This document shows, piece after piece, positions 19-29,322 of a stretch of 64,000 bases of DNA. Both the position numbers and the translations under genes were made by a program. The DNA is from Dehalococcoidia bacterium (GTDB lineage: Bacteria > Chloroflexota > Dehalococcoidia > Lucifugimonadales > Lucifugimonadaceae): contig OY821634.1 in the NCBI GenBank assembly GCA_963555965.3, positions 1,523,754 to 1,587,753 on the forward strand, given 5' to 3'. How positions within the stretch are numbered: the stretch's first letter is position 1; every line of letters begins with the position of its first letter. Under the pieces are notes generated by a model. The model saw only the letters and a list, made by a program, of their open reading frames with translations, was not told the DNA's origin and searched no databases.

Positions 19-252
19 TTTGAACTATGATTGCGATGATTTTTGATGATGGACTGTGATGCTCCGCCCCTCCCTCTCTATGGGTAGGGGCGGTTCGCGA
101 ACCGCCCCTACGGGTAGGATGGGTTTTTGAACTATGATTGCGGTGATTTGAAATGATGAACTGTGATGGGTGTTGCGGATGTCTATCTGTCATTCCGGGA
201 GGGGCGGAGCATCATAGCACATCATCCAGCATCATCGCAATCATAGTTCAAA
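19..252. mobile_element. MITE-like unit bounded by perfect 22-bp terminal inverted repeats
   Basis: TTTGAACTATGATTGCGATGAT at 19-40 has its exact reverse complement at 231-252. There is no credible ORF inside. No transposase is in the window, so mobility is only inferred. Confidence 0.4.
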
Positions 253-440: not shown

Positions 441-520
441 GTGTCCATCTGTCATTCCGAGTGTCCGTCTGTCATTCCGAGCGTCCATCTGTCATTCCAA
501 GCGTCCGTCTGTCATTCCGA
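441..520. repeat. 4 x 20-bp perfect-register tandem repeat
   Basis: The units are GTGTCCATCTGTCATTCCGA, GTGTCCGTCTGTCATTCCGA, GCGTCCATCTGTCATTCCAA and GCGTCCGTCTGTCATTCCGA. They are followed by the GCGCAGTGAGGAATC half of the common GTCATTCCGAGCGCAGCGAGGAATC module. Confidence 0.9.
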
Positions 521-1058
521 GCGCAGTGAGGAATCTGCCCTCCCCTTTTTGCGCCAGCAAAAGGGGGACGCGGCGAGCGCAGCGAGACGCAGGGGGTTCA
601 TACACTCGCAACCACCACACCCGCAATACCCACCACAGCATACACACCACCGGAGGGGCCGGGCATCATAGCCCATCATCGAAAATCATGGCAATCATAG
701 TTCAAAAAGGGAGCACATCCCTCCCCCTTTGTCCTTCGGACATTTCCCCCGCGAGCGGGGGAAACCTGGATACCCGCGTGCGCGGGTATGACGGGTATGC
801 ATCATAGCCCATCATCCAGCATCACCGCAATCACAGTTCAAATGCGGGGGCTTGGGGGGTGTGCGCGCGGTCTTGGGTGGCAATCCTTTCGATAATTCGA
901 GAATCTTGCCTATCCTTTTATTGCGCGGGGTAGTATAGACTGGTATGATGTTGTGCGTAAGTCGGAATGGCACGCGCTTTTTCGATTCACACACTAGCAT
1001 GTTGATTGCTAATGACGGACTGACGACAGGTCAAGCTTGGTAAAGGAAATGCAACGTG

Positions 1059-4000
1059 ATGAAATCCCCTACATCACTGATTAGTATCAGGAACGCAGTG
1101 GGCGCAATGCTGGCGCTGTCGGCTATCTTCGCCGTCGTCATTAGCACCATCTCTATGCCCGGAGACAACGCGACCGCGCAGACGACTGACCCGGTCGAGG
1201 TACGTGCAAAGGCGTGGTTTAACTCCCTGACCCTTGATGAGGCCATCGACGCATTGCTAGGAAAGGAAGCCGACGCTGTTGCAGATGGTGAAAACCCGAC
1301 CGATGCAACACGGGGCCGACAATACGTCGATGCCGATAACCCTGCCGTTATCAATAAGGATATCGAACTTATCAAAGCTGCTTGGGATGCCAAATCCGAT
1401 ACCCAGACGTTCTACGATGGCTTGCTAGCGAACGCTACTGCAGCAAATACAAGCCCCTACACTGTTACCGGTGCTGTTGCCCACAAGGCAAGAGTAAAGA
1501 GCCTTGTGGACGCTAGCACTGACGATCCCGGCGACATCTACGCCGTTGGTGAAGAGCCCAGTGATCTTAATCAAGCGATACGCGGATTCCAGAGCGTGGA
1601 ACTTTGGTGGGACCACTTGACATGTATTGAAGCTCGCATAGCTGTCGGTGAAGACAGCGATGATCTGAGCGATACGGACGCCAATGATACCGAGACTGGT
1701 TTCCAGATCGAAGCCAGCGATGTCTGCACGGCTACTGTGAACAGCGATAACACTGGCATCGTTGACGGCAGTAAAGTAGCGAAGGCTTATTCAGATTTGG
1801 GCGATGCTAAGGCTCAGGTTGACGAGGTCGGTCAAGCCATTCTAGGCCTTTCGAGCGCAGGTTCTGCCAGCAGTGCGGACAATGCTCGAGCGAAGGCTTG
1901 GTGGGACTCTTTGGACACTACGCGTCGAGTGCAGGCGCTCTACGGCGATGATGTGACCGCTGGGACAGCACCATCACAGCGCCCTTCGTCCGGTGATACG
2001 ATTGCGGCGACTCGGCTTTACTTGGCAACCCGTAAGTATGACGAAATCTCGGCAGGTATCAAATTCCCTGCAGGCGATGGCGGAACCCCCGCGGCCAAGA
2101 CGTTCACGCTCAACGAGGCCTCGATGAAACTCGCAACAGGTATCAAGAAGTTGGTCAATGACCGTGCGATTCTGATCTACGGCAACGGCGGCAGCGGAGG
2201 CAAATACGAAGGCGTCGATGCATGGTGGGATTCCATCGGTTGTCTCGAGAAGCAGATCGCGGTTGGTGAGGATAACGAACCTGTTTCCAGCCCGCCGGGA
2301 GAGTTTTGCCGGTCATTCAGCGGCGCCACCGGACTTGCCGATGATCAGGATCGAAATGGCACCAGTGCAGGAACCGATATCGACGGCCGCGGCGTTTCGC
2401 AACGTGAACGCGCGATGACTGTCGGACGAGTTTTGCTCAACTTGAAGTCGCTCCCGCAAGTCGCCGCTTGGTGGGACACCTTGAGCGGCGACCAGATGGT
2501 GAATGTGGTTTACGGCTCCCCTGCGAAGACGACTAGGACCGACACAGATACTAACGACGATGTCGACGAATCGGATGCGACGGCTACTGAGAAGGCGTTG
2601 TTCAAGAAGAAGTACGCGTCTTTGAGCGGCGCTGTGCTAATAACTCGCCTCCCATCGGCCACGACAACCTTGTTGACACGTCACGGTGTTACCGCAGGTT
2701 ACGATTTGAACGACAACGGTGCGGCGAACAATATCCTATCTGATCTTTCGGAAGTGACGCTCGGTTTTGACCTTAACGGCGACGGTGATGCGACAGATAC
2801 GGAAGTCGGTAACGTAGATGAAGCGAACTTCCGCGGCTTGAAAGCCATTGTCGGCGCCATTGCAACGGAGATCTTCGATCCGCCTACTTCATCTAGTGCT
2901 GACGACGGCAATACTGGTTTCTCAGGCGCCACAGTCAATGACGACGACGAGTTCGATCCTCCTTACCAGTCGGTCGGCGATTGGTGGGAGATTCTGGACT
3001 GCCGCACGATGCGCTTGGCGGTCGGCGAGGACAACGATTACCTCGACGCCGGCGATGCAAACGCTGATCCAGTTGTTCCGGCCGAGACTAGCGCGGGTGG
3101 TTTCTGCGGTCATTTGCCTGGAGCGGCTGCGGCCACTGCTGCTAACACGCTCAGCCAGGCTGCGCATGATCGCGTGGATGTAGTCGGTAAGGCGCTCCTC
3201 GCTCGATCCGAGGTTGGACGTCCTTCGTTTAACGTCGCTGTAGCTGGCATTCCCACGATTTCCGGCACCGCACAGGTCGGCTCGACTCTGACCGCCAACA
3301 CCGGCGGCATCAGCGACGGCGACGGACCGGGAACAACATTCAGCTACCAGTGGATACGAAGCGGTACTGACATCGCAGGCGCCACTGGCAGCACGTACAC
3401 GTTGACGGCTGCGGATGCTGGTGCCATGATCTCGGTTCGGGTGTCGTTCACAGACGGTGAACGCTACCCAGAGTCGACGACCAGCGTCGGCACATCCGTG
3501 GTCGCCGGTTCACCGGGCATGATCTCGAAGATCGAGCCTAATATCCGCGGCATTGCGATATCTGGCGGCGACACCGTGGTTCTGTCAGTGAACGTCTACG
3601 GTCTGCAAGACAAGATGGACAACAAGCTCGGCGGCACCTACACATGGTCTGTGAATGGCACGAGTGTCGACGGATCGGGTCGCGAGCTTTCCTACACTGC
3701 CCCGACCTCACCTGGCACCTACAATGTGAAGGCCACGCTCGCCGATGGCGACTGTGCGCCTAAGGACGAAACGATGCGTGCCTCCGCCTGTTCGGCCGAG
3801 TTCGAAGTCAAGGTGCTGCGCCCGTCGGCTCCACAGCCGGCGCCGGAAGCCCCGGTCAACCCGCCTGGCGAGATCCCCTCGATCCTCGCCGACAGCGAAG
3901 GCGAGCAGTACGAAGTGTTCACGCCGGTAGAAGGCGGCACGTTCACCGGCAACGGTTACTCGATAACTGCTGCTGCCGGCGCAGTCTCGAACGGCGAGTT

Positions 4001-4511
4001 CATCGGCGTCCGCATGTCTGACGACGGTGCGGCATCGAACGCGGGCATGACGCACCAGCGCTACACGCTCGGCGGCAACATGTACGGCGTCCACGCGGTG
4101 GACAGCACCGGTGCTGCGATCAGCTCGTACGTCCTTGAGGATGCGGCCACGGTCTGCGTACCGCTGCCGGACGAGCTGCGATCGAACATCTCGGACTTGG
4201 CAGTAGTGGCGATCAACGGCGACGGTTCGCTCACGATCCTGTCGGCGCAGGTTAGGATAACCACTGCTGGCACGATGGTTTGCGGCGGCTTGAGCAACCT
4301 TCCCGCCTCTGTGGCGGTAGGCAGCGCAGGCGCCCCGGCAGCCATCCCGACTCCGACACCAGAGCCCACGCCAGAGCCGCCCGTGACTGGTGGCACCGCC
4401 CCGGCATCGAGCGCCACGGTCCTCTGGGCCCTGCTCCTCGGCGTAGCAGTGCTGACACTAGGCGCTGCCCTAGTGATAGCCCGCCGTCGAGAGGGAACGC
4501 GAAAGAGCTAG
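1059..4511 (+). CDS. Large secreted, C-terminally anchored repeat surface protein (paralog A)
   Basis: Long ORF (track 1056-4511). ATG at 1059 is preceded by AAGGAA. N-terminal signal/anchor is AMLALSAIFAVVISTISMPGDNATAQ. Three alternating pairs of W(W/F)xxLx9(Y/L)G and WWxxhxCx6VGED motifs are present. Ig-like repeats are present (GTAQVGSTLTAN...FSYQWIRSG...YTLTAADAG). The tail is Pro/Thr linker, PVTGG, hydrophobic helix, then RRREGTRKS. Confidence 0.85.
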   Translation: MKSPTSLISIRNAVGAMLALSAIFAVVISTISMPGDNATAQTTDPVEVRAKAWFNSLTLDEAIDALLGKEADAVADGENPTDATRGRQYVDADNPAVINKDIELIKAAWDAKSDTQTFYDGLLANATAANTSPYTVTGAVAHKARVKSLVDASTDDPGDIYAVGEEPSDLNQAIRGFQSVELWWDHLTCIEARIAVGEDSDDLSDTDANDTETGFQIEASDVCTATVNSDNTGIVDGSKVAKAYSDLGDAKAQVDEVGQAILGLSSAGSASSADNARAKAWWDSLDTTRRVQALYGDDVTAGTAPSQRPSSGDTIAATRLYLATRKYDEISAGIKFPAGDGGTPAAKTFTLNEASMKLATGIKKLVNDRAILIYGNGGSGGKYEGVDAWWDSIGCLEKQIAVGEDNEPVSSPPGEFCRSFSGATGLADDQDRNGTSAGTDIDGRGVSQRERAMTVGRVLLNLKSLPQVAAWWDTLSGDQMVNVVYGSPAKTTRTDTDTNDDVDESDATATEKALFKKKYASLSGAVLITRLPSATTTLLTRHGVTAGYDLNDNGAANNILSDLSEVTLGFDLNGDGDATDTEVGNVDEANFRGLKAIVGAIATEIFDPPTSSSADDGNTGFSGATVNDDDEFDPPYQSVGDWWEILDCRTMRLAVGEDNDYLDAGDANADPVVPAETSAGGFCGHLPGAAAATAANTLSQAAHDRVDVVGKALLARSEVGRPSFNVAVAGIPTISGTAQVGSTLTANTGGISDGDGPGTTFSYQWIRSGTDIAGATGSTYTLTAADAGAMISVRVSFTDGERYPESTTSVGTSVVAGSPGMISKIEPNIRGIAISGGDTVVLSVNVYGLQDKMDNKLGGTYTWSVNGTSVDGSGRELSYTAPTSPGTYNVKATLADGDCAPKDETMRASACSAEFEVKVLRPSAPQPAPEAPVNPPGEIPSILADSEGEQYEVFTPVEGGTFTGNGYSITAAAGAVSNGEFIGVRMSDDGAASNAGMTHQRYTLGGNMYGVHAVDSTGAAISSYVLEDAATVCVPLPDELRSNISDLAVVAINGDGSLTILSAQVRITTAGTMVCGGLSNLPASVAVGSAGAPAAIPTPTPEPTPEPPVTGGTAPASSATVLWALLLGVAVLTLGAALVIARRREGTRKS

Positions 4512-4555
4512 ACGCAAAGCAGCGGCGGTTCCCGAACCGCCCCTACGCACCAAAA

Positions 4556-4591
4556 GGGGCAGGCACAAACAACGTGCCTGCCCCTTTTTTT
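4556..4591 (+). terminator. Rho-independent terminator of paralog A
   Basis: Stem GGGGCAGGCAC (4556-4566), loop AAACAAC, stem GTGCCTGCCCC (4574-4584), then T7 (4585-4591). Confidence 0.85.
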
Positions 4592-6600
4592 GTCACCGCG
4601 TCCCCTCCCCTTTTTGCGCAGCAAAAGGGGGAATAGAAGGGGGTTCATACCGTTTGAACTGTGATGGGCTGTGATGTCGAATGATGGACTGTGATGGGTG
4701 TTGCGGGTATCCGGGTTTCCCTCCGCTCGCGGGGGAAATGTCCGAAGGACAAAGGGGGCGCGAAGGATTGCATCCCTCCCCCTTGATATTCAAGGGGGAA
4801 CAAAAGGGGGTTCATACCGTTTGAACTATGATGGGCTGTGATGTCGAATGATGGACTGTGATGGGTGTTGCCGGTATGCGGGTTTTCCTCCGCTCGCGGG
4901 GGAAATGTCCGAAGGACAAAGGGGGCGCGAAGGATTGCATCCCTCCCCTTTTTGCGGAGCAAAAGGGGGAATAGAAGGGGGTTCATACCGTTTTTGAACT
5001 GTGATGGGCTGTGATGTCGAATGATGAACTGTGATGGGTGTTGCGGGTATGCGGGTTTCCCTCCGCTCGCGGGGGAAATGTCCGAAGGACAAAGGGGGCG
5101 CGAAGGATTGCATCCCTCCCCTTTTTGCGGAGCAAAAGGGGGAATAGAAGGGGGTTCATACCGTTTTTGAACTATGATGGGCTGTGATTTGAAATGATGG
5201 ACTGTGATGGGTGTTGCGGGTATCCGGGTTTCCCGCCGCTCGCGGGGGAAATGTCCGAAGGACAAAGGGGGCGCGAAGGATTGCATCCCTCCCCTTTTTG
5301 CGGAGCAAAAGGGGGAATAGAAGGGGGTTCATACCGTTTGAACTATGATGGGCTGTGATGGGTGCGAGTGTATGAACCCCCTGCGTCTCGCTGCGCTCGC
5401 CGCGTCCCCCTTTTGCTGGCGCAAAAAGGGGAGGTACGCGTTCCCTCCCCCTTGATGCTCAAGGGGGAACAAAAGGGGGTTCATACCGTTTGAACTATGA
5501 TGGACTGTGATTTGAAATGATGGACTGTGATGCCCTGCCTCCTCCCCGTCTGTGCGGGTATGCGGGTTTCCCTCCGCTCGCGGGGGAAATGTCCGAAGGA
5601 CAAAGGGGGCGCGAAGGATTGCATCCCTCCCCCTTGATGCTCAAGGGGGAATAGAAGGGGGTTCATACCGTTTGAACTGTGATGGGCTGTGATGTCGAAT
5701 GATGGACTATGATCCCATCCTCCCCTCCCCGTCTGAGCAGGTATGCGGGTTTCCCGCCGCTCGCGGGGGAAATGTCCGAAGGACAAAGGGGGCGCGAAGA
5801 TTGCATCCCTCCCCCTTGAGCATCAAGGGGGAATAGAAGGGGGTTCATACCGTTTGAACTATGATGGGCTGTGATGTCGAATGATGAACTGTGATGGGTG
5901 TTGCGGGTATGCGGGTTTCCCTCCGCTCGCGGGGGAAATGTCCGAAGGACAAAGGGGGCGCGAAGATTGCATCCCTCCCCCTTGATGTTCAAGGGGGAAT
6001 AGAAGGGGGTTCATGCCGTTTTTGAACTATGATGGGCTGTGATTGGGAATGATGGACTGTGATGGGTGTTGCGGGTATCCGGGTTTCCCTCCGCTCGCGG
6101 GGGAAATGTCCGAAGGACAAAGGGGGCGCGAAGATTGCATCCCTCCCCCTTGATATTCAAGTTTTGAACTATGATGGACTGTGATGTCGAATGATGGGGT
6201 GTGATGGAGTCGGATATGTGTGATGGGTGCGGGTGTATGAACCCCCTGCGTCTCGCTGCGCTCGTCGCGTCCCCCTTTTGCGGAGCAAAAGGGGGAGGGT
6301 TACGGTGCCCCCTGCACTGAACAAAGGGAGGGCCGGGCATCACAGTTAATCATCAAAAAATCACAGCCCATCATAGTTCAAAAATCACCACAGCATACGC
6401 ACCAGCGGAGGGACGGGGCATCATAGCCCATCCTTCGACATCATGGCAATCATAGTTCAAAAAACGGCATGCACCCCCTTCTATTCCCCCTCAGAGAGGG
6501 GGAGGGAACGCGTACCTCCCCCTTTTGCTGACGCAAAAAGGGGAGGGGCCGGGCATCACAGCACATCGTTTCAAATCATCGCAATCATAGTTCAAAATTG
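4592..6600. repeat. Tandem array of about nine head-to-tail composite units (152-182 bp), ending in opposite-orientation modules
   Basis: The unit marker GGGGGTTCAT(A/G)CCG occurs at 4639, 4806, 4977, 5150, 5323, 5475, 5657, 5839 and 6005. Each unit carries a TTGAACT(A/G)TGATGG(G/A)CTGTGAT module. It also carries the hairpin GGTTTCCC-N10-GGGGAAA and one of two CCCTCCCC-led hairpins. From ~6340 the modules appear reverse-complemented (ATCACAGCCCATCATAGTTCAA at 6360-6381). Confidence 0.9.
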
Positions 6601-6673
6601 GATGCGTTGAGCAGTTGCCGTTGTTAGACTGGTTAGATGTCGGTTTTTAGGCTGAAAATAGAAGAGAGAGTTG

Positions 6674-9600
6674 ATGAAATCCCATACCATGGCATCGCTG
6701 ATGCAGACTAAGGTTAGGCACGCACTGGGCGTCATGCTGGCGATCTCGGCTATCTTCGCCGTCGTCATTAGCACCATCTCAATGCCCGGTGACAGGGCTA
6801 CGGCGCAAGTGGATGATGCTGATGCCGAAGTCTCGAAACGTGCCGCCGCGTGGTTCAACTCCTTGACCCTCGATGAAGCGATCAACGCAATTCTCGGAAA
6901 AGAAGCCGACGCTGACAATGGCACGGACGGCCGACAGTACGTCGATACCGATGACCCTGCCGATATCAATCAGGCTATCGAATTTATCTACGATGCTTGG
7001 ACGAAGAAATCCGCAACCCAGTCGTTCTATGATGGCTTGCCGGCGAGCACGTCAGTGGCGAGTAACAGCGGTCTTGCCAATCACGTTGCGGTCAAGGCCC
7101 TCGTAGATGGCAGTACTTCCGGGGCTACCGAGCTTTACGCAGTCGGTAACCAGATTTCGAGTGTCCAAGGCATCCGCGCATTCCAAAGCGTCAAACTGTG
7201 GTGGAACCACTTGGATTGCACGGAAGCCCGTACAGTCGTGGGTGAAGACAGTGATGATCTGCTCAATAGCATCGACGACGACAATGATAGCAACACCGCA
7301 AACGTTTTGGAATCCAGTAGTGTCTGTCAGTTTCCTGCAGGCACAACAGTTGGCGGCGACGCTACTGCGAATGCTATCTCCTACGACAGTCTGTCCGATA
7401 AGACCCAGGTGAACCAAGTAGGCAACGCCCTGCTCGGTCTTACTAACGGCGGAACGTACAGCGCATCCGACAACGCGATGGCCAAGCGCTGGTGGGGCAA
7501 GCTGAACGGGACTCAGAGAGCCTTCGCGCTCTACGGCGACGCATTGACCTTAACCACCCCAACGACGAACCAAGGAAACACCGCGGTCAGTGTGCCGCGA
7601 CCTTTGATCGCAAGCCATGGATACGACGATATAACTACGTCGATCACCTTCACAGTCGATGTTGATGGCACATTCACCGAATTGCCTATGGATGCCGCTT
7701 CAAAAGCGTTGGTTCCCGAAGTGAAGGCACTGATCAACGACCGAGCGATGCTGATCTACGGCAACGGCGGTACCGGCGGCAAATATGAGGGTGTCGATGC
7801 TTGGTGGAATTCCATCGGTTGTCTCGAGAATCAGATATCGGTTGGTGAAGACAACGAACCTGTTGCTAGCACGCCGGGCGAGTTCTGCGTCGCGTCATTC
7901 AGCAGTCTCGCCAAAACGCAGGATAGAAATGCTGATCCCAGAACCGTTTCTGACCGGGAACGCGCGATGACTGTCGGGCGTGCGCTGCTCAATCTTGCGG
8001 ATATCCCGGATTCCGGCGCTTGGTGGAACACGTTGAATGCAACGCAGATGGTCAACGTGGTTTACGGCGACCCGTTGGAGATGGAAGGTGACCCGGCGGC
8101 TCCGAAAGCATCTGAAGCGGACCGCAAAGCGTTCCAGCAGATGTACGCCAATTTGGGCACCGTTCGTGTCGTCGCATCAGATCTGCCTGATGTCATGATT
8201 GCCGATACGTCAGGCCTGCTTACCAGACAAGCCGTCCCAACCGAGCTATTCGACCATGACAACAACACAGGCACCAGTCAGGTGCCAGGCTACTTGGCCA
8301 AAGATGTCGTAGATGCCATTGCGACCGAAATCTTCGATCCGCCGCACGGGTTGTATGGCGCATATCGCAGGCAGAATAATGAAGCAATCGTTAACAACCT
8401 GGACGCTAACATCAGTGAAAACGTCACCAACAACCAACCCGATGACGACAACGAGTTTGACCCTCCTTATCAATCGGTCGGCGATTGGTGGGAGACTCTG
8501 GACTGCCGCGTGATGCGCTTGGCGGTCGGCGAAGACAACGATTACCCCGACATCGAGACCGCTGGCTTAGAGCCTGAGGACTACAAAATCGAGACCAGCA
8601 TTTACTGCGGTCACTTGCCCGGCGCGGCTAAGGCAACAAACGCTGCTAACACGCTCATCCAGGATGCGCATGATCGCGTGGATGTAGTCGGTAAAGCCCT
8701 TCTTGCACGTAGCGAGGTCGGCCGTCCGTCGTTCAACGTCGCTGTAACTGGCATCCCGACGATCACCGGCACTGCGAAGGTAGGTTCGATGTTGACCGCC
8801 AACCCCGATGCCATCAAGGACGGCGACGGAGTGGGGGCCTTCAGCTACCAGTGGATACGAGACGGTGCTGACATCTCCGGGGCCACCGGCAGCACGTACA
8901 CGTTGACCGCTGCGGATGCGAATGCGATGATATCGGTTCGAGTGTCGTTCACAGACGGCGAGCGCTACCCAGAGTCGACGACCAGCGTCGGCACATCCGT
9001 CGTCGCCGGCTCCCTGGGCAGAATCTCCAAGATAGAGCCGGCGATCCGCGACATCAAGTTGTCCGGCGGCGGCACTGTTGTTCTGTCCCTGAACGTCTAC
9101 GGTGTGCAGGGCGATATAGACAACAGCCTCGGCGGCACATACTCATGGTCCGTGAATGGCACGAGCATCGAGGGATCGGGCCGTGAGCTTTCCTACACTG
9201 CCCCGTCCTCGCCCGGCACCTACAATGTGAAGGCGACGCTGGCCGATGGCGACTGCCGTCCAAAAGACGAATCGAATCGTGTATCTGCCTGTTCGGCCGA
9301 GTTCGAGGTGAAGGTGCTGCGTCCGTCGGCTCCACAGCCGGCGCCGGAAGCCCCGGTCAACCCGCCTGGCGACATCCCCAGCATCCTTGCAGACTCCGAG
9401 GGCAACCAGTACGAAGTGTTCACGCCGGTAGAAGGCGGTACGTTCAGTGGCGACGGCTACTCGATCACCGCCGCATCTGGTGCCGTTCCGAACGGCGAGT
9501 TCATCGGTGTCCGCATGTCCGACGACGGTGCGGCATCGAACGCGGGCATGACGCACCAGCGCTACACGCTCGGCGGCAACATGTACGGTGTACACGCTGT

Positions 9601-10012
9601 TGACAGTTCCTCGAACGCGATCACCAGCACCGAGCTTGACGATCCTGCCACGGTCTGCGTACCGCTGCCGGACGAGCTGCGATCGAACATCTCGGACTTG
9701 GCAGTAGTGGCGATCAACGGCGATGATTCGCTTACGATCCTGTCAGCACGGGTCAGGATCACAACTGCTGGCACCATGGTGTGCGCTGGCTTGAGCAGCC
9801 TCCCGGCATCATTGGCGGTAGGCAGCGCCGGAGCCCCGGCAGCCATCCCGACGCCGACGCCGGAGCCCACGCCCGAACCGCCCAACACTGGTGGCAGCGC
9901 CCCGGCATCGAGCGCCACGGTCCTCTGGGCCCTGCTCCTCGGCATCGCAGTGCTGACACTAGGCTCCGTCCTGGTAATAGTCCGCCGTCGAGAGGGAACG
10001 CGAAAGAGCTAG
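6674..10012 (+). CDS. Large secreted, C-terminally anchored repeat surface protein (paralog B)
   Basis: Long ORF (track 6671-10012), ATG at 6674. Signal region, six WW-type motifs, Ig-like repeats and C-terminal tail (PNTGG, helix, RRREGTRKS) match paralog A. The C-terminal ~460 aa are nearly collinear with paralog A. Confidence 0.85.
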   Translation: MKSHTMASLMQTKVRHALGVMLAISAIFAVVISTISMPGDRATAQVDDADAEVSKRAAAWFNSLTLDEAINAILGKEADADNGTDGRQYVDTDDPADINQAIEFIYDAWTKKSATQSFYDGLPASTSVASNSGLANHVAVKALVDGSTSGATELYAVGNQISSVQGIRAFQSVKLWWNHLDCTEARTVVGEDSDDLLNSIDDDNDSNTANVLESSSVCQFPAGTTVGGDATANAISYDSLSDKTQVNQVGNALLGLTNGGTYSASDNAMAKRWWGKLNGTQRAFALYGDALTLTTPTTNQGNTAVSVPRPLIASHGYDDITTSITFTVDVDGTFTELPMDAASKALVPEVKALINDRAMLIYGNGGTGGKYEGVDAWWNSIGCLENQISVGEDNEPVASTPGEFCVASFSSLAKTQDRNADPRTVSDRERAMTVGRALLNLADIPDSGAWWNTLNATQMVNVVYGDPLEMEGDPAAPKASEADRKAFQQMYANLGTVRVVASDLPDVMIADTSGLLTRQAVPTELFDHDNNTGTSQVPGYLAKDVVDAIATEIFDPPHGLYGAYRRQNNEAIVNNLDANISENVTNNQPDDDNEFDPPYQSVGDWWETLDCRVMRLAVGEDNDYPDIETAGLEPEDYKIETSIYCGHLPGAAKATNAANTLIQDAHDRVDVVGKALLARSEVGRPSFNVAVTGIPTITGTAKVGSMLTANPDAIKDGDGVGAFSYQWIRDGADISGATGSTYTLTAADANAMISVRVSFTDGERYPESTTSVGTSVVAGSLGRISKIEPAIRDIKLSGGGTVVLSLNVYGVQGDIDNSLGGTYSWSVNGTSIEGSGRELSYTAPSSPGTYNVKATLADGDCRPKDESNRVSACSAEFEVKVLRPSAPQPAPEAPVNPPGDIPSILADSEGNQYEVFTPVEGGTFSGDGYSITAASGAVPNGEFIGVRMSDDGAASNAGMTHQRYTLGGNMYGVHAVDSSSNAITSTELDDPATVCVPLPDELRSNISDLAVVAINGDDSLTILSARVRITTAGTMVCAGLSSLPASLAVGSAGAPAAIPTPTPEPTPEPPNTGGSAPASSATVLWALLLGIAVLTLGSVLVIVRRREGTRKS

Positions 10013-10056
10013 AGGCAAAGCAGGGACGGTTCGCGAACCGCCCCTACGAACCAAAA

Positions 10057-10093
10057 GGGGCAGGCACAAACAACGTGCCTGCCTCTTTTTTTT
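10057..10093 (+). terminator. Rho-independent terminator of paralog B
   Basis: Stem GGGGCAGGCAC, loop AAACAAC, stem GTGCCTGCCTC, then T8. It is a near-identical copy of the terminator at 4556-4591. Confidence 0.85.
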
Positions 10094-10320
10094 GAACTAT
10101 GATGGGCTGTGATTGGGAATGATGGGGTGTGATCCCCTCCCCTCCCCGTCTGAGCGGGTATGCGGGTTTCCCTCCGCTCGCGGGGGAAATGTCCGAAGGA
10201 CAAAGGGGGCGGGAAGATTGCATCCCTCCCCTTTTTGCGGAGCAAAAGGGGGACGCGGCCAGCGCAGCGAGACGCAGGGGGTTCATACACCCGCACCCAT
10301 CACAGCCCATCATAGTTCAA
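10092..10320. mobile_element. MITE-like unit bounded by perfect 22-bp terminal inverted repeats
   Basis: TTGAACTATGATGGGCTGTGAT at 10092-10113 has its exact reverse complement at 10299-10320. The interior equals one unit of the 4.6-6.2 kb array. Confidence 0.45.
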
Positions 10321-10575
10321 GCATCCCCCCAACCCCCTTACGCTCCGCGAAGGGGGAGAGATTCCTCGTTGCGCTCGGAATGACAGAGGGCCAGCCAAAC
10401 CCCAAAATCACAGCCCATCATTTCAAATCATCGCAATCATAGTTCAAAAGACGGCATGAACCCCCCGCGTCTCGCTGCGCTGGCACCCCCTTCAATTCCC
10501 CCTCAGAGAGGGGGAGGGAAAGGATTTTGCTGACGTAAAACGTAGGGGCGGTTCGCGAACCGCCCCTACTGTTAT
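10321..10575. repeat. Mosaic repeat modules including a perfect 28-bp palindrome
   Basis: The palindrome GTAGGGGCGGTTCGCGAACCGCCCCTAC lies at 10542-10569. A reversed GTCATTCCGAGCG module and a CCCCCTCAGAGAGGGGGAGGG hairpin are also present. Confidence 0.85.
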
Positions 10576-10584
10576 CCTCTGGGT

Positions 10585-10935
10585 ATGGCGACTAAAGACA
10601 TGGAACGCGTTTCGCATCTGGAAGGTGCGTATGAGCACATGGCTACGAAGGCTGAACTAGCGACTCTGAACGGCGATTATCGGCTTCAGTTCGAGAGGAT
10701 CGAGCATCGTTTCGAGTCGATCGACCGTCGTTTCGAGGCTATTGACCGTCGTTTCGAGGCTATCGAAGCAACAATGCGTTCGATGCAAGAAGTGCTCGTC
10801 CAGATAGTGGAACGCCTCGATCGCATTGAGGAACGTCTGGATCGGCTTGAGAATTTGAACTCTCGAGCTATCGGCTTTCAGACGGAGGCTAGGACTCTGC
10901 GCGACGATGGTGATGAATTTCTAGGCGGTCCCTAG
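10585..10935 (+). CDS. Small coiled-coil protein (heptad RFE(A/S)IDR repeats), function unknown
   Basis: 116-aa ORF with heptad-like repeats RFESIDRRFEAIDRRFEAIE and ERLDRIEERLDRLENLNSRAIGF. It shares a C-terminal motif with the ORF at 17453-17698. It is bracketed by perfect palindromes at 10542-10569 and 10964-10991. Confidence 0.55.
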   Translation: MATKDMERVSHLEGAYEHMATKAELATLNGDYRLQFERIEHRFESIDRRFEAIDRRFEAIEATMRSMQEVLVQIVERLDRIEERLDRLENLNSRAIGFQTEARTLRDDGDEFLGGP

Positions 10936-10939
10936 AAAT

Positions 10940-11310
10940 TTTGCGGTGCCGCGGTTTCGGCTAGTAGGGGCGGTTCGCGAACCGCCCCTACCAAGTCCTT
11001 CCCCCTTTGCTGACGCAAAAGGGGAGGAGAGGCGGGCGTCCCTCCCCCTTGATGCTCAAGGGGAGCACCGCACCCCTCCCCCTTTTTGCTCCGCAAAAAG
11101 GGGGAATGAAAGGGGGTTCATACAGCGCGTAGGGTGTATGAACCCCTGCGTCTCCCTGCGCTGGCACCCCCTTCAATTCCCCCTCAGAGAGGGGGAGGGA
11201 AAGAATTTTGCTGACGCAAAAGGGGGAGGAGAGGCGGCGGCATCACAGCCCATCATTTCAAATCATCGCAATCATAGTTCAAAAGGGGGCGGTTCGCGAA
11301 CCGCCCCTAC
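10940..11310. repeat. Mosaic repeat modules with two palindrome copies
   Basis: A perfect 28-bp palindrome lies at 10964-10991. A perfect 22-bp core GGGGCGGTTCGCGAACCGCCCC lies at 11286-11307. Its flanking CTA (11307-11309) is the stop codon of the minus-strand gene. Confidence 0.85.
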
Positions 11311-12893
11311 ACCGCCTCTCCTGCCAGTATGCCTGTCAGTCTCTCGTGGTCTACGGCGACCTTGCCGTTGACTACTACGAACGGGATGCCCTCTGGGTAC
11401 TGTTCGGGGTCTTCAAATGTGGCGCGGTCGGTGATGCGGTCGGAGTCGAATACTACGATGTCTGCGAATTTTCCTTTTGCGATTTCGCCTCGATCTTTGA
11501 GTCCGAAGCGAAGTGCTGCGTTCTGGGACAGACGCTGAACCATCAACTCTAGGGGGATGTTGTGACGGCGTCGGAGGCGTCCGATCATGCGCGGGAAGCA
11601 CCCGTAGGCGCGCGGATGCACCATGCCGCCAGTGGGAATGGCGTCTGATCCCACCATGTAGTCCGGACGTTGCATCAACTCCATGATGTCGGCCTCGACC
11701 TGCTGCCACACACGCACGCTGGCAGGCGGCGCGCCACGGAAGCCGCAGTTGAGTTCCTCTTCGAGCATGACTCGGCACATCATCTCTTCGACGGATACGT
11801 TCCACTCCGCCGCCACGTCGTCGAAGTCCATACCTTCCAAATGCTTGTTCGCCTCTGAGCCGATGCTCGACCATACGTTTCCCGAGACACCGCCTCGGGT
11901 TCCGCTACGGATGCCTGCAATCACCTCTTCTCGGTTCTCACCGTCAGCCAGTAGTTTCAACATCGCTTCGGGTCCGCCCTCGTGGAACCAGCTGGGGAAG
12001 AATGTCTGCGGGAAGCTGGAACCTACAGGATAGGGGTAGGTCTCTAACGTGACATCTACGCCGTCTGACTTGGCGCGTTCGACGGGTTCGAGTATCGATT
12101 CGAGGTCGCCTGCGGAGTCTGGTTGCGTACGGTAGTGCTCAAGGTGTATCTGTGCGCCGGATCGACGTCCGATCTCCATCGCCTCTTCGACACCGCCGCC
12201 TGCGAAACCGCGATCAACGTTGTGGTTTCGAAGGTGGATGGAAAGCGGACGCTCGTACTCCTTGACGACCTTCATGATGTTTACGAGTTCGTCGGTGTCG
12301 GAGAATGAGTTGGGGTAGTAGGAGAGTCCGGTGGAGAATCCGCACGCGCCCTGTTCAAAACTCTCACGGATTATGCGCTCGACGCGTTTCCAGTTGTCGC
12401 CGGTCAGAGGCTCGTCGATCATGCCGCCTACGGCTTCGAGTCGGACGGGTCCGTGACCGAGGAACATGGCGACGTTGCACGATGTCTTGTTGTGGTAGTT
12501 CGACATCGCGGTGCCGTACGTCGACATGTCCAGATCTTCGGACGCGTAGCCCAAGATGCCGCTCAGGTAGTGCATGTACATCAAGTAGTTGTCGCGTGAG
12601 AGCGGCGCGAGGGTGAGACCGTCTGGAGCGATGATCTCGGTAGTGACTCCCTGTCGGATGCCGCAAGCGTGTTGACCGTCCCTGAGCAACGCAGCATCGG
12701 CGTGTGAGTGGACATCTATGAAGCCTGGGGTGACAGCGAGGCCGTTGGCGTCGATAACACGTATGGCGTTTGCCGCGGAGAGATCGCCGATAGCGGAGAT
12801 GCGTTTGCCGTCAATGCCGACATCGGCTCGGATGCCGGGTGCGCCGGTGCCATCGTAAACAGTGCCATTGATGATTAGCAGGTCGAATTGCAT
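11307..12893 (-). CDS. D-aminoacylase / N-acyl-D-amino-acid deacylase family amidohydrolase
   Basis: 528 aa. The N-terminus IINGTVYDGTGAPG...GIDGKRISAIGDL...VTPGFIDVHSHAD is typical of the D-aminoacylase amidohydrolase family. Confidence 0.85.
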   Translation of the reverse strand: MQFDLLIINGTVYDGTGAPGIRADVGIDGKRISAIGDLSAANAIRVIDANGLAVTPGFIDVHSHADAALLRDGQHACGIRQGVTTEIIAPDGLTLAPLSRDNYLMYMHYLSGILGYASEDLDMSTYGTAMSNYHNKTSCNVAMFLGHGPVRLEAVGGMIDEPLTGDNWKRVERIIRESFEQGACGFSTGLSYYPNSFSDTDELVNIMKVVKEYERPLSIHLRNHNVDRGFAGGGVEEAMEIGRRSGAQIHLEHYRTQPDSAGDLESILEPVERAKSDGVDVTLETYPYPVGSSFPQTFFPSWFHEGGPEAMLKLLADGENREEVIAGIRSGTRGGVSGNVWSSIGSEANKHLEGMDFDDVAAEWNVSVEEMMCRVMLEEELNCGFRGAPPASVRVWQQVEADIMELMQRPDYMVGSDAIPTGGMVHPRAYGCFPRMIGRLRRRHNIPLELMVQRLSQNAALRFGLKDRGEIAKGKFADIVVFDSDRITDRATFEDPEQYPEGIPFVVVNGKVAVDHERLTGILAGEAV

Positions 12894-13091
12894 CGGTTCT
12901 CCGTCCGTTCAAAGTATGGTTGTGCGGCTTGTGATAGCAGGATATCGCGAAAGCTTAGAATTGACTCATAGAATCGACCATTTTTCGATTCCTGTATCGC
13001 TTCAACTTGGCGAGAAAAGAGAATCCTGATAGATTAATGGCACTGTGCTCAAGTGTAGTCACGTGTATCAACACAAAGAGAAGGAACAGAC

Positions 13092-13298
13092 ATGAATGCA
13101 TCTACTGTTGAGCAGGCAACCGATCCAAAATCCGACCTGTCCGACGAAGACGTTCGTCACGCGGTTGAGATCGCCAAGGGTTTGAGAGAAGTGGCTGCCG
13201 CTGCGAAAAACTATAAGGCGGGAGAATATGCCTTGGGTTTGAAGGTGAGTAAAGGTGGAGAGGTTGTTTTCACGGTGACACGCAAAGGCTGGCTATGA
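13092..13298 (+). CDS. Hypothetical small protein (68 aa)
   Basis: The ORF is preceded by GAAGGA ~7 nt upstream. It lies in an AT-richer divergent intergenic region. No recognisable motif. Confidence 0.4.
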   Translation: MNASTVEQATDPKSDLSDEDVRHAVEIAKGLREVAAAAKNYKAGEYALGLKVSKGGEVVFTVTRKGWL

Positions 13299-13513
13299 AC
13301 GAATTGGGTGAGTTCTTCGGCAATTGGTGGCAAGAATTCGCATCGGGAGGTGGAGGAATAGCAGTAGGTTACTGGTTAAGAGGGGTTGTAAGTAACATTC
13401 GGTTCCAGTTTAGAGGTCAGTTGAACATAGACGTTGGCAACCGCAATCTATTGGATACTCCACCACGTGCGCGGTCAGATGGGACACCAGTGAACGGACA
13501 CGAAGAAGAATGA
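13295..13513 (+). CDS. Hypothetical small protein (72 aa), start overlaps upstream stop (ATGA)
   Basis: ATGA start/stop overlap with 13092-13298. It has a Gly-rich, possibly membrane-associated segment GGGGIAVGYWLRGVV. Confidence 0.35.
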   Translation: MNELGEFFGNWWQEFASGGGGIAVGYWLRGVVSNIRFQFRGQLNIDVGNRNLLDTPPRARSDGTPVNGHEEE

Positions 13514-24608: not shown

Positions 24609-24936
24609 CGCTTAAGTTCCTATCTCTAAAGTCTGACGACTTCCTAGTTCCGTAGCAGACAACAACATTCGTCTGCCACGAACCCATTTCTAGACCTCAA
24701 TCTTCAACATCATCACAAGAAATCTTCAAGATCATGTCAAGACCCAACCCCAATCACACCCGCGTGTAGGTGGAAATCCAGGTTCCGCCGCTCGCGAGGG
24801 AAATGCCCGAAGGACAAAGGGGGCGCGAAGCATCACACCCGATCATCACAAAATCATCGCAATCACAGTTGAAAAATCACCCCAAAATATAGTCTTAACC
24901 TAAGCACAACTTCCAACCCGCAAGGAGATACGATAC

Positions 24937-25727: not shown

Positions 25728-25895
25728 ATTCCAACGTACCCACCCATGTCATTCCGAGCGCAACGAGGAACCTCCCCCCTTCGCACAGCGCAAGGGGGCT
25801 AGGGGGATGCTTGCTGCAATTCCAACGTACCCACCCGTCATTCCGAAGTACCCACCCGTCATTCCCGCGTAGGCGGGAATCTAGAGGGGGTCAGG
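25728..25895 (+). repeat. 168-bp direct repeat, left copy (flanks the TA cassette)
   Basis: Manual alignment with 27006-27173 shows 4 mismatches and no indels. It contains the GTCATTCCGAGCG module and the hairpin ATTCCCGCGTAGGCGGGAAT. Confidence 0.9.
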
Positions 25896-25897
25896 TA

Positions 25898-29318: not shown

Positions 29319-29322
29319 TTCA

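What the first reader, a model, noticed from the sequence alone, without database searches (positions are those of the whole stretch)
4592..6600. A ~2-kb head-to-tail array of ~170-bp composite hairpin units between two paralogous surface-protein genes
The marker GGGGGTTCAT(A/G)CCG recurs at 4639, 4806, 4977, 5150, 5323, 5475, 5657, 5839 and 6005, with spacing of 152-182 bp. Each unit chains the same sub-modules. First comes TTGAACT(A/G)TGATGG(G/A)CTGTGAT plus further TGATGG iterations. Next comes the hairpin GGTTTCCC(T/G)CCGCTCGCGGGGGAAA. Then GTCCGAAGGACAAAGGGGGCGCGAAG. Last is one of two interchangeable CCCTCCCC-led hairpins, either TTTTTGCGGAGCAAAAGGGG or CTTGAT(A/G)(T/C)TCAAGGGGG. One unit (5323-5475) swaps in a different module (GTATGAACCCCCTGCGTCTCGCTGCGCTCGCC...). 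After ~6340 the modules are reverse-complemented, so the array ends in a long imperfect inverted structure. The array is not coding, because its ORFs are only repeat read-through. It is not a CRISPR, because the inter-repeat sequence is itself repeated. REP/BIME-like elements are normally 1-3 units, so a 9-unit ordered array of multi-hairpin units is unusual. Its position between duplicated genes suggests it is a recombination substrate or product, or an insulator. Each unit also contains TTGAAC-N17-TCGAAT, a weak sigma70-like pair, so arrayed small transcripts are conceivable but speculative.
Basis: partly seen in the sequence, partly recalled or inferred. Interest (0 to 1): 0.75.

Follow-up and report, generated by a model that had tools for sequence, protein, structure and literature searches.

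The report
Expanded tandem array of hairpin repeats
The 2-kb gap between two duplicated surface-protein genes of a SAR202-type (Dehalococcoidia) bacterium is a real, non-coding, recently expanded head-to-tail array (nine units here, two in a sister genome) of a mosaic repeat; this is an ordinary kind of bacterial repeat amplification, but its 45-nt double-hairpin core is unusually conserved behind genes in many species and remains unexplained.

Summary
Tandem Repeats Finder finds 9.0 copies of a ~173-bp unit at 4603-6148. The marker sits exactly where stated, one unit has a swapped middle, and after ~6340 the modules are reverse-complemented. The array is non-coding and is not a CRISPR.

It is not a stand-alone device. 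The same modules fill the spacers upstream of gene 1 and downstream of gene 2. The syntenic locus of a ~96%-identical genome (L115) has the same head and tail but only 2 units. So this is a recent copy-number expansion of a BIME/REP-cluster-like mosaic block. Related Dehalococcoidia genomes carry many 2-5-copy arrays of this sort; this one is the longest I saw.

Only a ~45-nt core is shared across species: a 9-bp G+C hairpin, then AUG, then the small hairpin GUCC-GAA-GGAC, then AAAGGGGG. It is nearly invariant in about 35 genomes. It lies 0-60 nt behind stop codons and is co-oriented with the upstream gene (73 vs 8). It also occurs in low-GC genomes of other phyla and in a phage. It matches no Rfam family.

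The proposed sigma70 promoters are not supported. The claim that REP/BIME elements come only as 1-3 units is wrong. Function is inferred, not shown.

The parts
1056..4511 (+). Paralog 1: 1151-aa predicted surface protein with an N-terminal hydrophobic segment and a C-terminal PxTGG + TM + RRREG tail
   Evidence: ORF list. 62% aa identity to paralog 2. No Pfam family. Only sub-threshold ZirU-like and LAXTG/sortase-signal-like matches. Its 3' 1.65 kb is 84% identical at DNA level to paralog 2, and its 5' part is mostly 54-66% identical (one 300-bp window at 36%).
4522..4543 (.). Degenerate copy of the GTAG/CTAC-tagged palindrome GGGGCGGTTCGCGAACCGCCCC (REP-like), just after the stop codon
   Evidence: Pattern search finds 8 copies in the window against 0 expected.
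4556..4591 (+). Intrinsic-terminator-like hairpin of gene 1 (GGGGCAGGCAC-AAACAAC-GTGCCTGCCCC followed by T7). The array begins after it.
   Evidence: Read from the sequence. The hairpin is drawn in the weak Atu_C4 alignment. The tool's own terminator scan did not list it. The same structure follows gene 2 at 10057 and both paralogs in L115.
4603..4638 (+). Head of the array: CCCTCCCC-led hairpin (CCCCTTTTTGC-GCA-GCAAAAGGGG) plus the linker AATAGAA
   Evidence: The head is identical in L115.
4639..6163 (+). Nine head-to-tail units: u1 4639-4805, u2 4806-4976, u3 4977-5149, u4 5150-5322, u5 5323-5474 (middle replaced), u6 5475-5656, u7 5657-5838, u8 5839-6004, u9 6005-6163. Each unit runs: marker GGGGGTTCATRCCG; then a TTGAAC + 4 x 10-bp-phased TGATG module; then the core; then a linker; then one of two CCCTCCCC hairpins.
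   Evidence: TRF, marker positions, alignment and identity matrix, phasing. u2-u4 are 95-97% identical. u1 and u8 are 96% identical. u6 and u7 are 90% identical and share a 16-17-nt insert. The u7 hairpin loop GCA is the reverse complement of the u6 loop TGC.
4708..6131 (+). Eight copies of the cross-species core (hairpin 1 UUUCCC(U/G)CCG-CUCG-CGGGGGAAA, then AUG, then hairpin 2 GUCC-GAA-GGAC, then AAAGGGGGC) at 4708-4763, 4876-4930, 5048-5103, 5221-5276, 5559-5614, 5742-5797, 5908-5963 and 6076-6131
   Evidence: Covariance model R1 scores these at 66.9-70.5 bits, E 5e-20 to 6e-19. All are on the + strand, the sense strand of both flanking genes.
6164..6330 (+). Partial tenth unit: TGATG module, then the alternative module GTATGAACCCCCTGCGTCTCGCTGCGCTCG..., then the hairpin CCCCTTTTGC-GGA-GCAAAAGGGG
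   Evidence: (family D6). Conserved in L115 at 9472-9640 (77% identity).
6331..6598 (-). Tail in reverse orientation. It holds three reverse-complemented TGATG/TTGAAC modules (ending at 6384, 6466 and 6598), a reverse-complemented marker (6465-6478), and a reverse-complemented CCCTCCCC hairpin block (6497-6554). 6360-6381 is the exact reverse complement of the 22-mer TTGAACTATGATGGGCTGTGAT that starts several units.
   Evidence: Inverted repeats I1-I3, I15 and I20. The tail is the same in L115 at 9650-9925.
6671..10012 (+). Paralog 2: 1113-aa predicted surface protein
10092..10320 (+). Single complete copy of the composite element directly after the gene 2 terminator. It is bounded by perfect 22-bp inverted termini (10092-10113 and 10299-10320) and carries one core (10159-10214).
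717..843 (-). Single unit in reverse orientation upstream of gene 1, with a core at 718-772
   Evidence: nhmmer 76.8 bits. CM 75.3 bits. 99% conserved in L115.
24774..24828 (+). Isolated, diverged core copy in the spacer upstream of a short-chain dehydrogenase/enoyl-reductase-like gene
   Evidence: CM 46.8 bits, E 1e-12; sequence.

Best explanation
The feature is a real, non-coding tandem amplification of a composite intergenic repeat block. The block is a mosaic of short modules: a TTGAAC + 10-bp-phased TGATG module, a ~45-nt double-hairpin core, and small CCCTCCCC-led hairpins. These modules populate intergenic spacers of this SAR202-type Dehalococcoidia lineage.

Shown. The ancestral spacer held about two units. 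In this genome it expanded to nine, and modules were swapped between units.

Inferred. The expansion arose by unequal homologous recombination and/or replication slippage or template switching between the repeated modules. The array as such probably has no dedicated function. It is the extreme end of a clade-wide habit of duplicating such blocks. It sits in a recombination-active locus where the two surface-protein paralogs themselves are being shuffled.

Inferred. The one strongly constrained module, the core, most likely acts on the transcript. It would be a REP-like 3'-proximal stem-loop element that protects the mRNA 3' end or forms a U-tract-less termination or processing site. Eight sense-oriented copies in a row could incidentally insulate gene 2 from read-through.
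For: Shared modules.
- Modules of the array recur outside it at 19-824, 9813-10570, 10962-11310 and 24807-24865. Of the 2009 array positions, 1685 share 14-mers with sites outside the array.

Copy-number polymorphism.
- L115 (ENA ERZ21830300 ctg717487c, 2.71 Mb) is syntenic. It has two paralogs, then amidohydrolase, MTHFR, PgpA, sulfatase, MlrC and MR_MLE genes. Its flanks are 96-99% identical to the window.
- Its spacer is 1006 bp, with the same head and tail but only 2 units (TRF 183 x 1.9).
- L115a is 95% identical to u1 and u8. L115b is 97% identical to u7.

Signatures of tandem duplication.
- u2-u4 are 95-97% identical neighbours.
- All unit junctions are the same.
- There are 10 left-type but only 3 right-type TGATG modules, so nested insertion does not fit.
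- The u7 hairpin is the exact inversion of the u6 hairpin, which points to template switching.

Clade habit.
- Composite blocks of 91-240 bp are duplicated 2-3 times at many loci (window 26869-27124, L022, L043, L060, L064, L092, L109, L115-L118).
- The number of cores per 2 kb in 121 sources is 1 in 96, 2 in 15, 3-5 in 5, and 8 only here.

Shuffled paralogs.
- Window gene 1 best matches L115 gene 2 (84%), while the 3' ends and the spacer are 94% identical.

The core.
- It has sharp borders and diverse flanks.
- 97% of pair cells are paired. There are compensatory changes at the apical pair (GC to AU, 15 times) and in hairpin 2 (GUCC/GGAC to GCC/GGC and GCCC/GGGC).
- The upstream gene is co-oriented in 73 cases against 8 (p = 3e-14). 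Convergent spacers number 19 against 3 divergent.
- Its strand follows the local gene strand, not a replichore pattern.
- It starts 0-60 nt after the stop codon in many species. No canonical terminator lies in between in 66 of 75 cases.

Precedent.
- Tandem, strain-variable BIME copies and REPs lying mostly downstream of ORFs are described.
Against: No transcript, read or protein data were available.
- The mechanism of expansion is inferred from sequence patterns only.
- The 3'-UTR role of the core is inferred from position and orientation only.

In this window the array lies after a canonical-looking terminator. If that terminator is efficient, the cores here would be little transcribed.

The core is conserved in sequence, including its loops and the AAAGGGGG tail, far beyond what a simple protective hairpin needs. 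It also occurs with a perfect 25-mer in other phyla and in a phage. This suggests either sequence-specific recognition or horizontal mobility that my model does not explain.

The wobble asymmetry is weak (15 G-U against 8 C-A).

The exactly 10-bp phasing of about 40 TGATG motifs looks like a protein-binding platform and is unexplained.

Nine units is well above anything else sampled, so selection for expansion cannot be excluded.
Confidence: 0.68

Rival explanations
1. The array is a selected protein-binding platform. About 40 TGATG motifs at exact 10-bp phase (one face of the helix), interleaved with hairpins, would recruit a DNA-binding or nucleoid-organising protein. This would resemble iteron or centromere-like arrays, or IHF/gyrase-binding BIMEs. 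It could act as a topological or transcriptional insulator between the paralogs, near the origin-proximal yidC/jag region.
For: TGATG occurs 38 times against 2.3 expected, and 28 of 41 spacings are exactly 10 bp. The locus is about 20 kb from yidC/jag in L115. Nine units is the largest array seen. BIMEs are known to bind IHF, gyrase and Pol I.
Against: The sister genome manages with 2 units. The TGATG module is lineage-specific and absent from 114 loci of other species. The same module is scattered as single or inverted copies in other spacers. No candidate binding protein was identified.
Confidence: 0.1
2. The array was built by transposition. The unit would be a MITE with 22-bp terminal inverted repeats that repeatedly inserted into itself or next to itself.
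For: A complete 229-bp copy with perfect 22-bp inverted termini lies at 10092-10320. Inverted pairs of the TTGAAC/TGATG module bound other blocks (127-253, 388-705). The exact reverse-complemented 22-mer at 6360-6381 closes the array.
Against: There are 10 left ends but only 3 right ends. The unit junctions are identical. No target-site duplications are visible. No transposase, RAYT or integrase was found among the roughly 45 window ORFs scanned. The a/b units of L115 map onto window units as expected for duplication.
Confidence: 0.1
3. The array encodes arrayed small RNAs. Each unit would be transcribed or processed into a structured RNA, as with type III antitoxin repeat arrays or sRNA clusters.
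For: The 3' half of each unit folds into four consecutive hairpins. All cores lie on the sense strand. A relative (L022) has seven 41-nt head-to-tail truncated cores ending in one full core.
Against: No promoter-like site is found on the + strand. The RNA folding z-score of a unit is only -0.5. There is no adjacent toxin-like gene. There are no Rfam matches. The unit composition is not conserved outside this species.
Confidence: 0.06
4. The nine-unit length is an assembly artefact: a mis-expansion of a 2-3-unit repeat.
For: The closest genome has 2 units. I had no reads. The window's exact proteins are not on record in the contig index.
Against: All nine units differ from each other: four different hairpin-B loops, two insert-bearing units, one unit with a replaced middle, and 2-bp indels at the junctions. 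An artefactual expansion would produce identical copies. Related genomes in this clade are long-read chromosome-level assemblies.
Confidence: 0.05

Closest known systems
E. coli BIME-2 / atypical BIMEs (clusters of REP sequences)
   Same: Both are mosaics of short palindromic modules and linkers in intergenic DNA. Both occur as multiple tandem copies. Copy number at a given locus varies between strains, and copies at one locus are more alike than copies elsewhere (PMC3333891). Both are mostly downstream of genes.
   Different: In BIMEs the REPs alternate in orientation, carry the GTAG tag and are tied to a RAYT. Here all cores point the same way and the core has no GTAG. The unit is about 170 bp with 4-5 modules. 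No RAYT was seen in the window.
GTAG-tagged REP families, including Thermomicrobium roseum GTAG-23 (Chloroflexi) clustered in large blocks
   Same: Both occur in the phylum Chloroflexi. REP clusters are reiterated in tandem together with flanking DNA. REPs are preferentially located between unidirectional and convergent ORFs, downstream of coding regions (PMC3733652). A true GTAG/CTAC palindrome (GTAGGGGCGGTTCGCGAACCGCCCCTAC) co-occurs in these spacers.
   Different: The array units themselves do not contain that palindrome. The conserved core is a two-hairpin element with an invariant single-stranded tail, and it is conserved across species and even phyla. REP families are usually species- or genus-specific.
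MITEs and modular small repeats such as pneumococcal BOX elements or Neisseria Correia elements (from my own knowledge)
   Same: The composite, modular build is similar (BOX is boxA-(boxB)n-boxC with variable module number). Both have terminal inverted repeats (22 bp at 10092/10320) and lie in intergenic DNA close to genes. They may affect transcripts.
   Different: No target-site duplication and no partner transposase were identified. The amplification is of whole ~170-bp units in tandem rather than of one inner module.
CRISPR arrays and type III toxin-antitoxin RNA repeat arrays
   Same: Both have regularly spaced hairpin-containing direct repeats. Hairpin 1 superficially resembles a type I-E CRISPR repeat stem (my own recollection, not tested).
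   Different: There are no unique spacers, no cas genes and no leader. No ToxN/AbiQ-like gene lies downstream. The inter-hairpin sequence is itself repeated.

Membership tests
REP/BIME (RAYT-associated repetitive extragenic palindromes) | A 20-40-nt imperfect palindrome, extragenic, in high copy number | tested here: met
   Core hairpin 1 is a 22-nt palindrome. There are 11 cores in the window and at least 28 exact-pattern copies in one 3.1-Mb relative (OZ241880.1), with the scan truncated. Of 149 cores outside the window, 124 are clearly intergenic and 22 fall inside crude gene calls, all at gene ends.
REP/BIME (RAYT-associated repetitive extragenic palindromes) | Conserved GTAG (or CGTC) tetranucleotide at the foot of the palindrome | tested here: not met
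   The core consensus nnnnAGGGTTTCCCCCGCTCGCGGGGGAAATG... has no GTAG/CTAC tag. A different palindrome in the same spacers does have it, but it is not part of the array units.
REP/BIME (RAYT-associated repetitive extragenic palindromes) | BIME organisation: REPs in alternating orientation separated by linkers | tested here: not met
   All 8 cores of the array are on the + strand. The arrays in L022, L043 and L035 are also mostly head-to-tail.
REP/BIME (RAYT-associated repetitive extragenic palindromes) | A cognate RAYT (Y1 HUH transposase) gene in the genome, flanked by REPs | not testable with these tools
   No Y1_Tnp or any other transposase domain was found among the roughly 45 window ORFs scanned.
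MITE (miniature inverted-repeat transposable element) | Terminal inverted repeats bounding a short non-coding element | tested here: met
   Perfect 22-bp inverted termini at 10092-10113 and 10299-10320. Inverted module pairs at 127-253 and 388-705.
MITE (miniature inverted-repeat transposable element) | Target-site duplication and a partner transposase with matching ends | tested here: not met
   No direct duplication flanks the 10092-10320 copy (flanks TTTTTT and GCATCC). There is no transposase in the window. A genome-wide search was not possible.
CRISPR array | Short direct repeats separated by unique spacers of similar length, usually with cas genes or a leader | tested here: not met
   The sequence between hairpins is itself repeated at 80-97% identity. 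No cas domains were found in the window.
Known structured RNA families (Rfam 15) | A match at or near a family's gathering score | tested here: not met
   There were 0 matches at gathering threshold in the whole window. Nothing credible at E <= 5 in 4450-6700. Nothing over the core in five loci from other phyla.
Protein-coding tandem repeat | An open frame maintained across units, with a period divisible by 3 | tested here: not met
   Unit lengths modulo 3 are 2, 0, 2, 2, 2, 2, 2, 1, 0. The only long ORFs are on the minus strand and break within 1-4 units. The codon model calls no gene there.

The most novel reading that the evidence does not exclude
The ~45-nt core may be an undescribed element that is either horizontally mobile or universally recognised, and that works on transcripts just behind stop codons. 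It consists of a 9-bp G+C hairpin, then AUG, then the GUCC-GAA-GGAC hairpin, then an invariant AAAGGGGG tail.

Its near-perfect sequence conservation spans about 35 SAR202/Dehalococcoidia species. It also appears in low-GC Flavobacteriaceae, Rickettsiales and Firmicutes-type genomes, and in a tailed-phage structural operon, always in the sense orientation. This would then reflect a specific machinery, either a binding protein or nuclease, or a self-contained fold.

One speculative fold: the tail 5'-AAAGGGGG-3' is the mirror image of the hairpin's purine arm 5'-GGGGGAAA-3'. It could therefore lie antiparallel in that arm's major groove as a purine-motif triple helix that caps the RNA 3' end. 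Under this reading, the nine-unit array would be a natural multimer of such a device.
Probability: 0.3. Interest if true: 0.7.

Novelty: new variant of a known kind. Interest (0 to 1): 0.42.

Why it matters
The array itself is a further example, in a little-studied phylum, that mosaic intergenic repeats expand and contract quickly at a locus. Here it is 9 versus 2 units at about 96% genome identity. It also marks a recombination-active surface-protein locus, which could serve as a strain marker for uncultured SAR202 symbionts. It warns that short-read assemblies will collapse such spacers.

The more valuable by-product is the core. It is a compact, uncatalogued, strongly oriented element sitting behind stop codons in many uncultivated bacteria and one phage. 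These lineages often lack canonical terminators behind the genes examined. If the core is an RNA 3'-end or processing signal, it would improve operon and 3'-UTR annotation in Dehalococcoidia and add a new RNA motif class. If it is a mobile mini-element, its cross-phylum spread without a recognisable transposase would be interesting for mobile-DNA biology.

Tried and rejected
1. Finding the source genome. An exact-protein look-up for the window's 24937-25713 product found nothing. None of the 114 genome loci is the source; the best is ~74% nt identity.

2. Looking for the full ~170-bp unit in other genomes. nhmmer with a unit profile found only the 50-nt core outside the window and L115. Two JGI metagenome scans found 0 hits each, one for the unit junction and one for the 22-mer terminus.

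3. Known RNA families. Rfam was run at gathering and at permissive E-values on the window, the array and loci from other phyla, and found nothing.

4. Coding or start-codon ideas for the core's ATG. ORFs from it have a median of 37 codons. The few long ones simply run into the next gene. Rejected.

5. The AAAGGGGG tail as a Shine-Dalgarno sequence for the next gene. Distances to the next long ORF are broadly spread, with only a few at 3-12 nt. Rejected as a general rule.

6. Orientation set by replication, as for IS200/IS605-type ssDNA elements. The core strand flips many times along chromosomes and follows the local gene strand. Not supported.

7. Sigma70 promoters in each unit. Not found.

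8. Thermodynamic support. The + strand unit fold has z = -0.5 and the minus strand z = -3.0. This is uninformative in such G/C-tract-rich sequence.

9. Strand asymmetry of wobble pairs. 15 against 8, too weak to call.

10. GenBank phage and PLSDB plasmid searches with the core found no match. A literature full-text search for the core string, and for SAR202/Chloroflexi repeat descriptions, found nothing relevant.

11. Hammerhead, attC and SECIS/PYLIS-like readings of the core were considered by eye. They were dropped because the defining conserved nucleotides are absent. These were not formal tests.
Full report
OBSERVATION

The array is real. Tandem Repeats Finder reports 4603-6148, period 173, 9.0 copies, 80% matches. 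The marker GGGGGTTCATRCCG matches exactly at the nine stated positions and nowhere else on the + strand. Unit lengths are 167, 171, 173, 173, 152, 182, 182, 166 and 159 bp.

- marker;
- TTGAAC followed by four TGATG iterations;
- the hairpin GGTTTCCC(T/G)CCGCTCGCGGGGGAAA;
- GTCCGAAGGACAAAGGGGGCGCGAAG;
- a linker;
- one of two CCCTCCCC-led hairpins.

Unit 5 (5323-5474) has its middle replaced by a different module that recurs at 6235 and, inverted, at 574. From ~6340 to 6598 the modules are reverse-complemented.

The TGATG iterations are exactly phased. 28 of 41 successive spacings are 10 bp, and there are 38 TGATG against 2.3 expected.

No two units are identical. This argues against an assembly-made expansion, although I had no reads to check directly.

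NOT CODING, NOT CRISPR, NO KNOWN RNA, NO PROMOTERS

- Seven of nine unit lengths are not multiples of three.
- The long ORFs are on the minus strand and are repeat read-through.
- A codon-usage gene model trained on this clade's long ORFs calls nothing between 4511 and 6671.
- The inter-hairpin sequence is itself repeated.
- None of the roughly 45 window ORFs scanned carries a cas, transposase or integrase domain.
- Rfam gives no match at gathering threshold in the window, and nothing credible at E <= 5 in the array.
- The proposed TTGAAC-N17-TCGAAT promoter is not recovered by the consensus scan, which finds no + strand site.

SURROUNDINGS

The flanking ORFs (1056-4511 and 6671-10012) are 62% identical paralogs without Pfam domains. 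They have an N-terminal hydrophobic segment and a C-terminal PxTGG + TM + RRREG tail that weakly resembles sortase signals.

Each gene ends with a degenerate GTAG-type palindrome and a canonical-looking terminator hairpin with a T-run (4556-4591 and 10057 onward). The array therefore begins after the gene 1 terminator.

The same modules also fill the spacer upstream of gene 1 (19-824, including one reverse-oriented unit at 717-843). They also fill the spacer downstream of gene 2. That spacer holds a complete 229-bp copy at 10092-10320 bounded by perfect 22-bp inverted termini, and more modules up to 11310.

Other repeat families fill 25728-26168 and 26863-27173. The remaining ~37 kb of the window is essentially repeat-free and encodes housekeeping and organic-matter catabolic genes.

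ORIGIN AND RELATIVES

Nearly all are from Dehalococcoidia/SAR202 MAGs. From my own knowledge of the isolate names, several of these MAGs are sponge- or coral-derived. I did not verify this.

The full ~170-bp unit is not found in these genomes. Only model positions ~75-125 are shared.

A protein search with gene 2 led to L115 (ENA ERZ21830300 ctg717487c, 2.71 Mb). L115 is syntenic with the window over more than 20 kb, and its flanks are 96-99% identical in DNA. Its inter-paralog spacer is 1006 bp. It has the same head, the same partial last unit and the same reverse-oriented tail, but only two full units. L115a is 95% identical to window units u1 and u8. L115b is 97% identical to u7.

So the array differs by seven units between genomes of about species-level relatedness. 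This is a recent expansion here or a contraction there.

Several features fit tandem duplication with module exchange:
- neighbouring units u2-u4 are 95-97% identical;
- all unit junctions are the same;
- there are 10 left-type against 3 right-type TGATG modules;
- the u7 hairpin is the exact inversion of the u6 hairpin.

They fit unequal recombination, slippage or template switching, and they do not fit repeated nested transposition.

The paralogs are themselves mosaics. Window gene 1 best matches L115 gene 2 (84%), whereas the 3' 1.3 kb plus the spacer are 94% identical to L115 gene 1. Within the window, the paralogs' 3' 1.65 kb are 84% identical and their 5' parts mostly 54-66%.

HOW UNUSUAL IS NINE?

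Composite blocks of 91-240 bp are tandemly duplicated 2-3 times at many loci of this clade. Examples are window 26869-27124 (91 bp x 2.9) and L022, L043, L060, L064, L092, L109 and L115-L118.

Counting exact-pattern cores per 2 kb in 121 sources gives 1 in 96, 2 in 15, 3-5 in 5, and 8 only in the window. The sample is truncated and biased, but this array is the extreme of a common habit, not a unique structure.

The literature describes the same behaviour for E. coli BIME-2 and atypical BIMEs: multiple tandem copies, with number variable between strains (PMC3333891). It also describes REP clusters, including a Chloroflexi example in large blocks (PMC3733652).

THE CORE MODULE

The part shared across species is a discrete ~45-nt element with sharp borders and unrelated flanks. 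Its consensus is AGGGTTTCCCCCGCTCGCGGGGGAAATGTCCGAAGGACAAAGGGGGC.

A covariance model built from 40 copies finds 11 copies in the window (8 of them in the array) and about 150 strong copies in 100 loci. 97% of pair cells are paired. The apical pair of hairpin 1 shows GC to AU changes 15 times. Diverged copies show compensatory changes in hairpin 2. However, the loops, the AUG and the AAAGGGGG tail are also nearly invariant. The sequence, not only the fold, is therefore constrained.

Position and orientation are strongly non-random.
- The upstream gene is co-oriented in 73 cases against 8 (p = 3e-14).
- Co-directional sense contexts number 54 against 5 antisense. Convergent spacers number 19 against 3 divergent.
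- The strand follows local gene orientation along chromosomes rather than a two-replichore pattern.
- The core begins 0-60 nt after the stop codon of long genes in many species. In three cases a TAG stop overlaps its 5' edge.
- In 66 of 75 cases no canonical terminator lies between the stop codon and the core, and none follows it.

This is the pattern reported for many REP families. It is best explained by action on, or selection through, the transcript. The core would be a 3'-proximal protective or terminating stem-loop. That is inference, with no RNA data behind it.

Two simpler ideas did not hold up: the core's ATG as a start codon, and its tail as a ribosome-binding site for the next gene.

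UNEXPECTED EXTENSION

The exact 25-mer also occurs in genomes of quite different composition and taxonomy:
- a Flavobacteriaceae MAG (40% GC, four tandem copies about 124 bp apart);
- a Rickettsiales MAG (29% GC);
- an Acutalibacteraceae contig;
- two unclassified genomes (39-41% GC).

These copies lie between ordinary genes. In three of the five loci (L097, L087, L088) the core is downstream of a co-oriented ORF. The 25-mer also occurs in an IMG/VR tailed-phage contig, between the tape-measure gene and the next tail gene, in sense orientation.

A chance 25-mer match in that collection is very unlikely (my estimate is about 0.002 expected). It has no Rfam match in those contexts, no match in GenBank phages or PLSDB plasmids, and no literature hit for the string.

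So the core is either horizontally mobile or recognised by something widespread. I cannot tell which.

I note, as speculation only, that the tail AAAGGGGG is the mirror of the purine arm GGGGGAAA. Geometrically this permits a purine-motif triple helix. The copies I hold were selected with a pattern that fixes both segments, so I could not test covariation between them.

VERDICT

It is partly wrong on rarity relative to BIMEs and on the promoter idea.

The array is best filed as a recently expanded, BIME/REP-cluster-like tandem amplification of lineage-specific mosaic repeats in a recombination-active surface-protein locus. It works like a REP/BIME cluster, but it fails two defining features of that family: there is no GTAG tag on the core, and the orientation does not alternate. 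A third feature, the cognate RAYT, could not be tested.

Interest in the array itself is modest. The conserved, oriented, cross-phylum core is the part worth following up.

Noticed in passing
L097:1428-1830; L087:5432-5485; L052:4415-4470; L088:624-676; L080:5888-5942; L120:5020-5069: The 45-nt core, with its 25-mer perfectly conserved, occurs outside Dehalococcoidia. It is found in Flavobacteriaceae (four tandem copies), Rickettsiales, an Acutalibacteraceae contig and two unclassified low-GC genomes. It is also in a tailed-phage contig, between the tape-measure gene and the next tail gene. In most of these loci, including the phage, it lies behind a co-oriented ORF. It has no Rfam family.
   Followed up: partly
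window 87-108, 348-369, 10023-10044, 10545-10566, 10967-10988, 11286-11307, 33329-33350 (degenerate copy at 4522-4543): A separate, perfectly palindromic GTAG/CTAC-tagged REP-like repeat (GTAGGGGCGGTTCGCGAACCGCCCCTAC) is present in 8 copies against 0 expected. It also occurs in 4 of the related loci. This hints at a RAYT-type system somewhere in the genome.
   Followed up: partly
window 1056-4511 and 6671-10012 versus L115:5581-8994 and 10001-13450: The two surface-protein paralogs are mosaics between ~96%-identical genomes. Window gene 1 matches L115 gene 2 best (84%), and its 5' part matches L115 gene 1 only in short 72-78% patches. The 3' third, the terminator and the flanks are 94-99% conserved. 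This looks like diversifying recombination or gene conversion of a surface antigen-like family that is found only in this clade and has no Pfam domain.
   Followed up: partly
window 25728-26168 and 26863-27173: A second repeat-rich pair of spacers brackets a nucleotidyltransferase/HepT toxin-antitoxin pair (26092-26836). It holds GTCATTCCGAGCGCAGCGAGGAAT-type hairpin modules, a 91-bp x 2.9 tandem block and 21-bp repeats. The same module family forms 19-24-bp and 130-240-bp arrays in L116-L118.
   Followed up: no
L022:6240-6640 (shown reverse-complemented): A relative carries about seven head-to-tail 41-nt mini-units. Each is a truncated core (hairpin 1 variant plus CUCCGAAGUACAGCA, without hairpin 2 or the tail). 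The run ends in one complete core.
   Followed up: no
window-wide (e.g. 12-14 kb, 24-28 kb) and loci L006, L064, L079: GC skew tracks gene strand inversely. The coding strand is markedly C-rich and G-poor (local skew up to +/-0.25), whereas the repeat array is G-rich on the sense strand.
   Followed up: no
window 10585-10935: A small coiled-coil-like ORF (116 aa) contains 21-bp tandem repeats (10690-10766 and 10809-10851). It is embedded between repeat tracts downstream of gene 2, and the repeats are conserved in L115 (14097-14237).
   Followed up: no
window 443-523: GTCCATCTGTCATTCCGAGC is repeated 4 times (20-bp period) inside a TTGAAC/TGATG-bounded block upstream of gene 1.
   Followed up: no
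L115:1-1336: The orthologous locus lies about 5 kb downstream of yidC and jag/khpB, near the start of a circular 2.7-Mb contig. The paralog-plus-array locus is therefore probably origin-proximal.
   Followed up: no
window 28000-33250: A lower-GC stretch (0.49-0.50 against ~0.56) holds a 1235-aa ORF with no Pfam match and a 457-aa ORF with only a weak PD40 repeat match.
   Followed up: no
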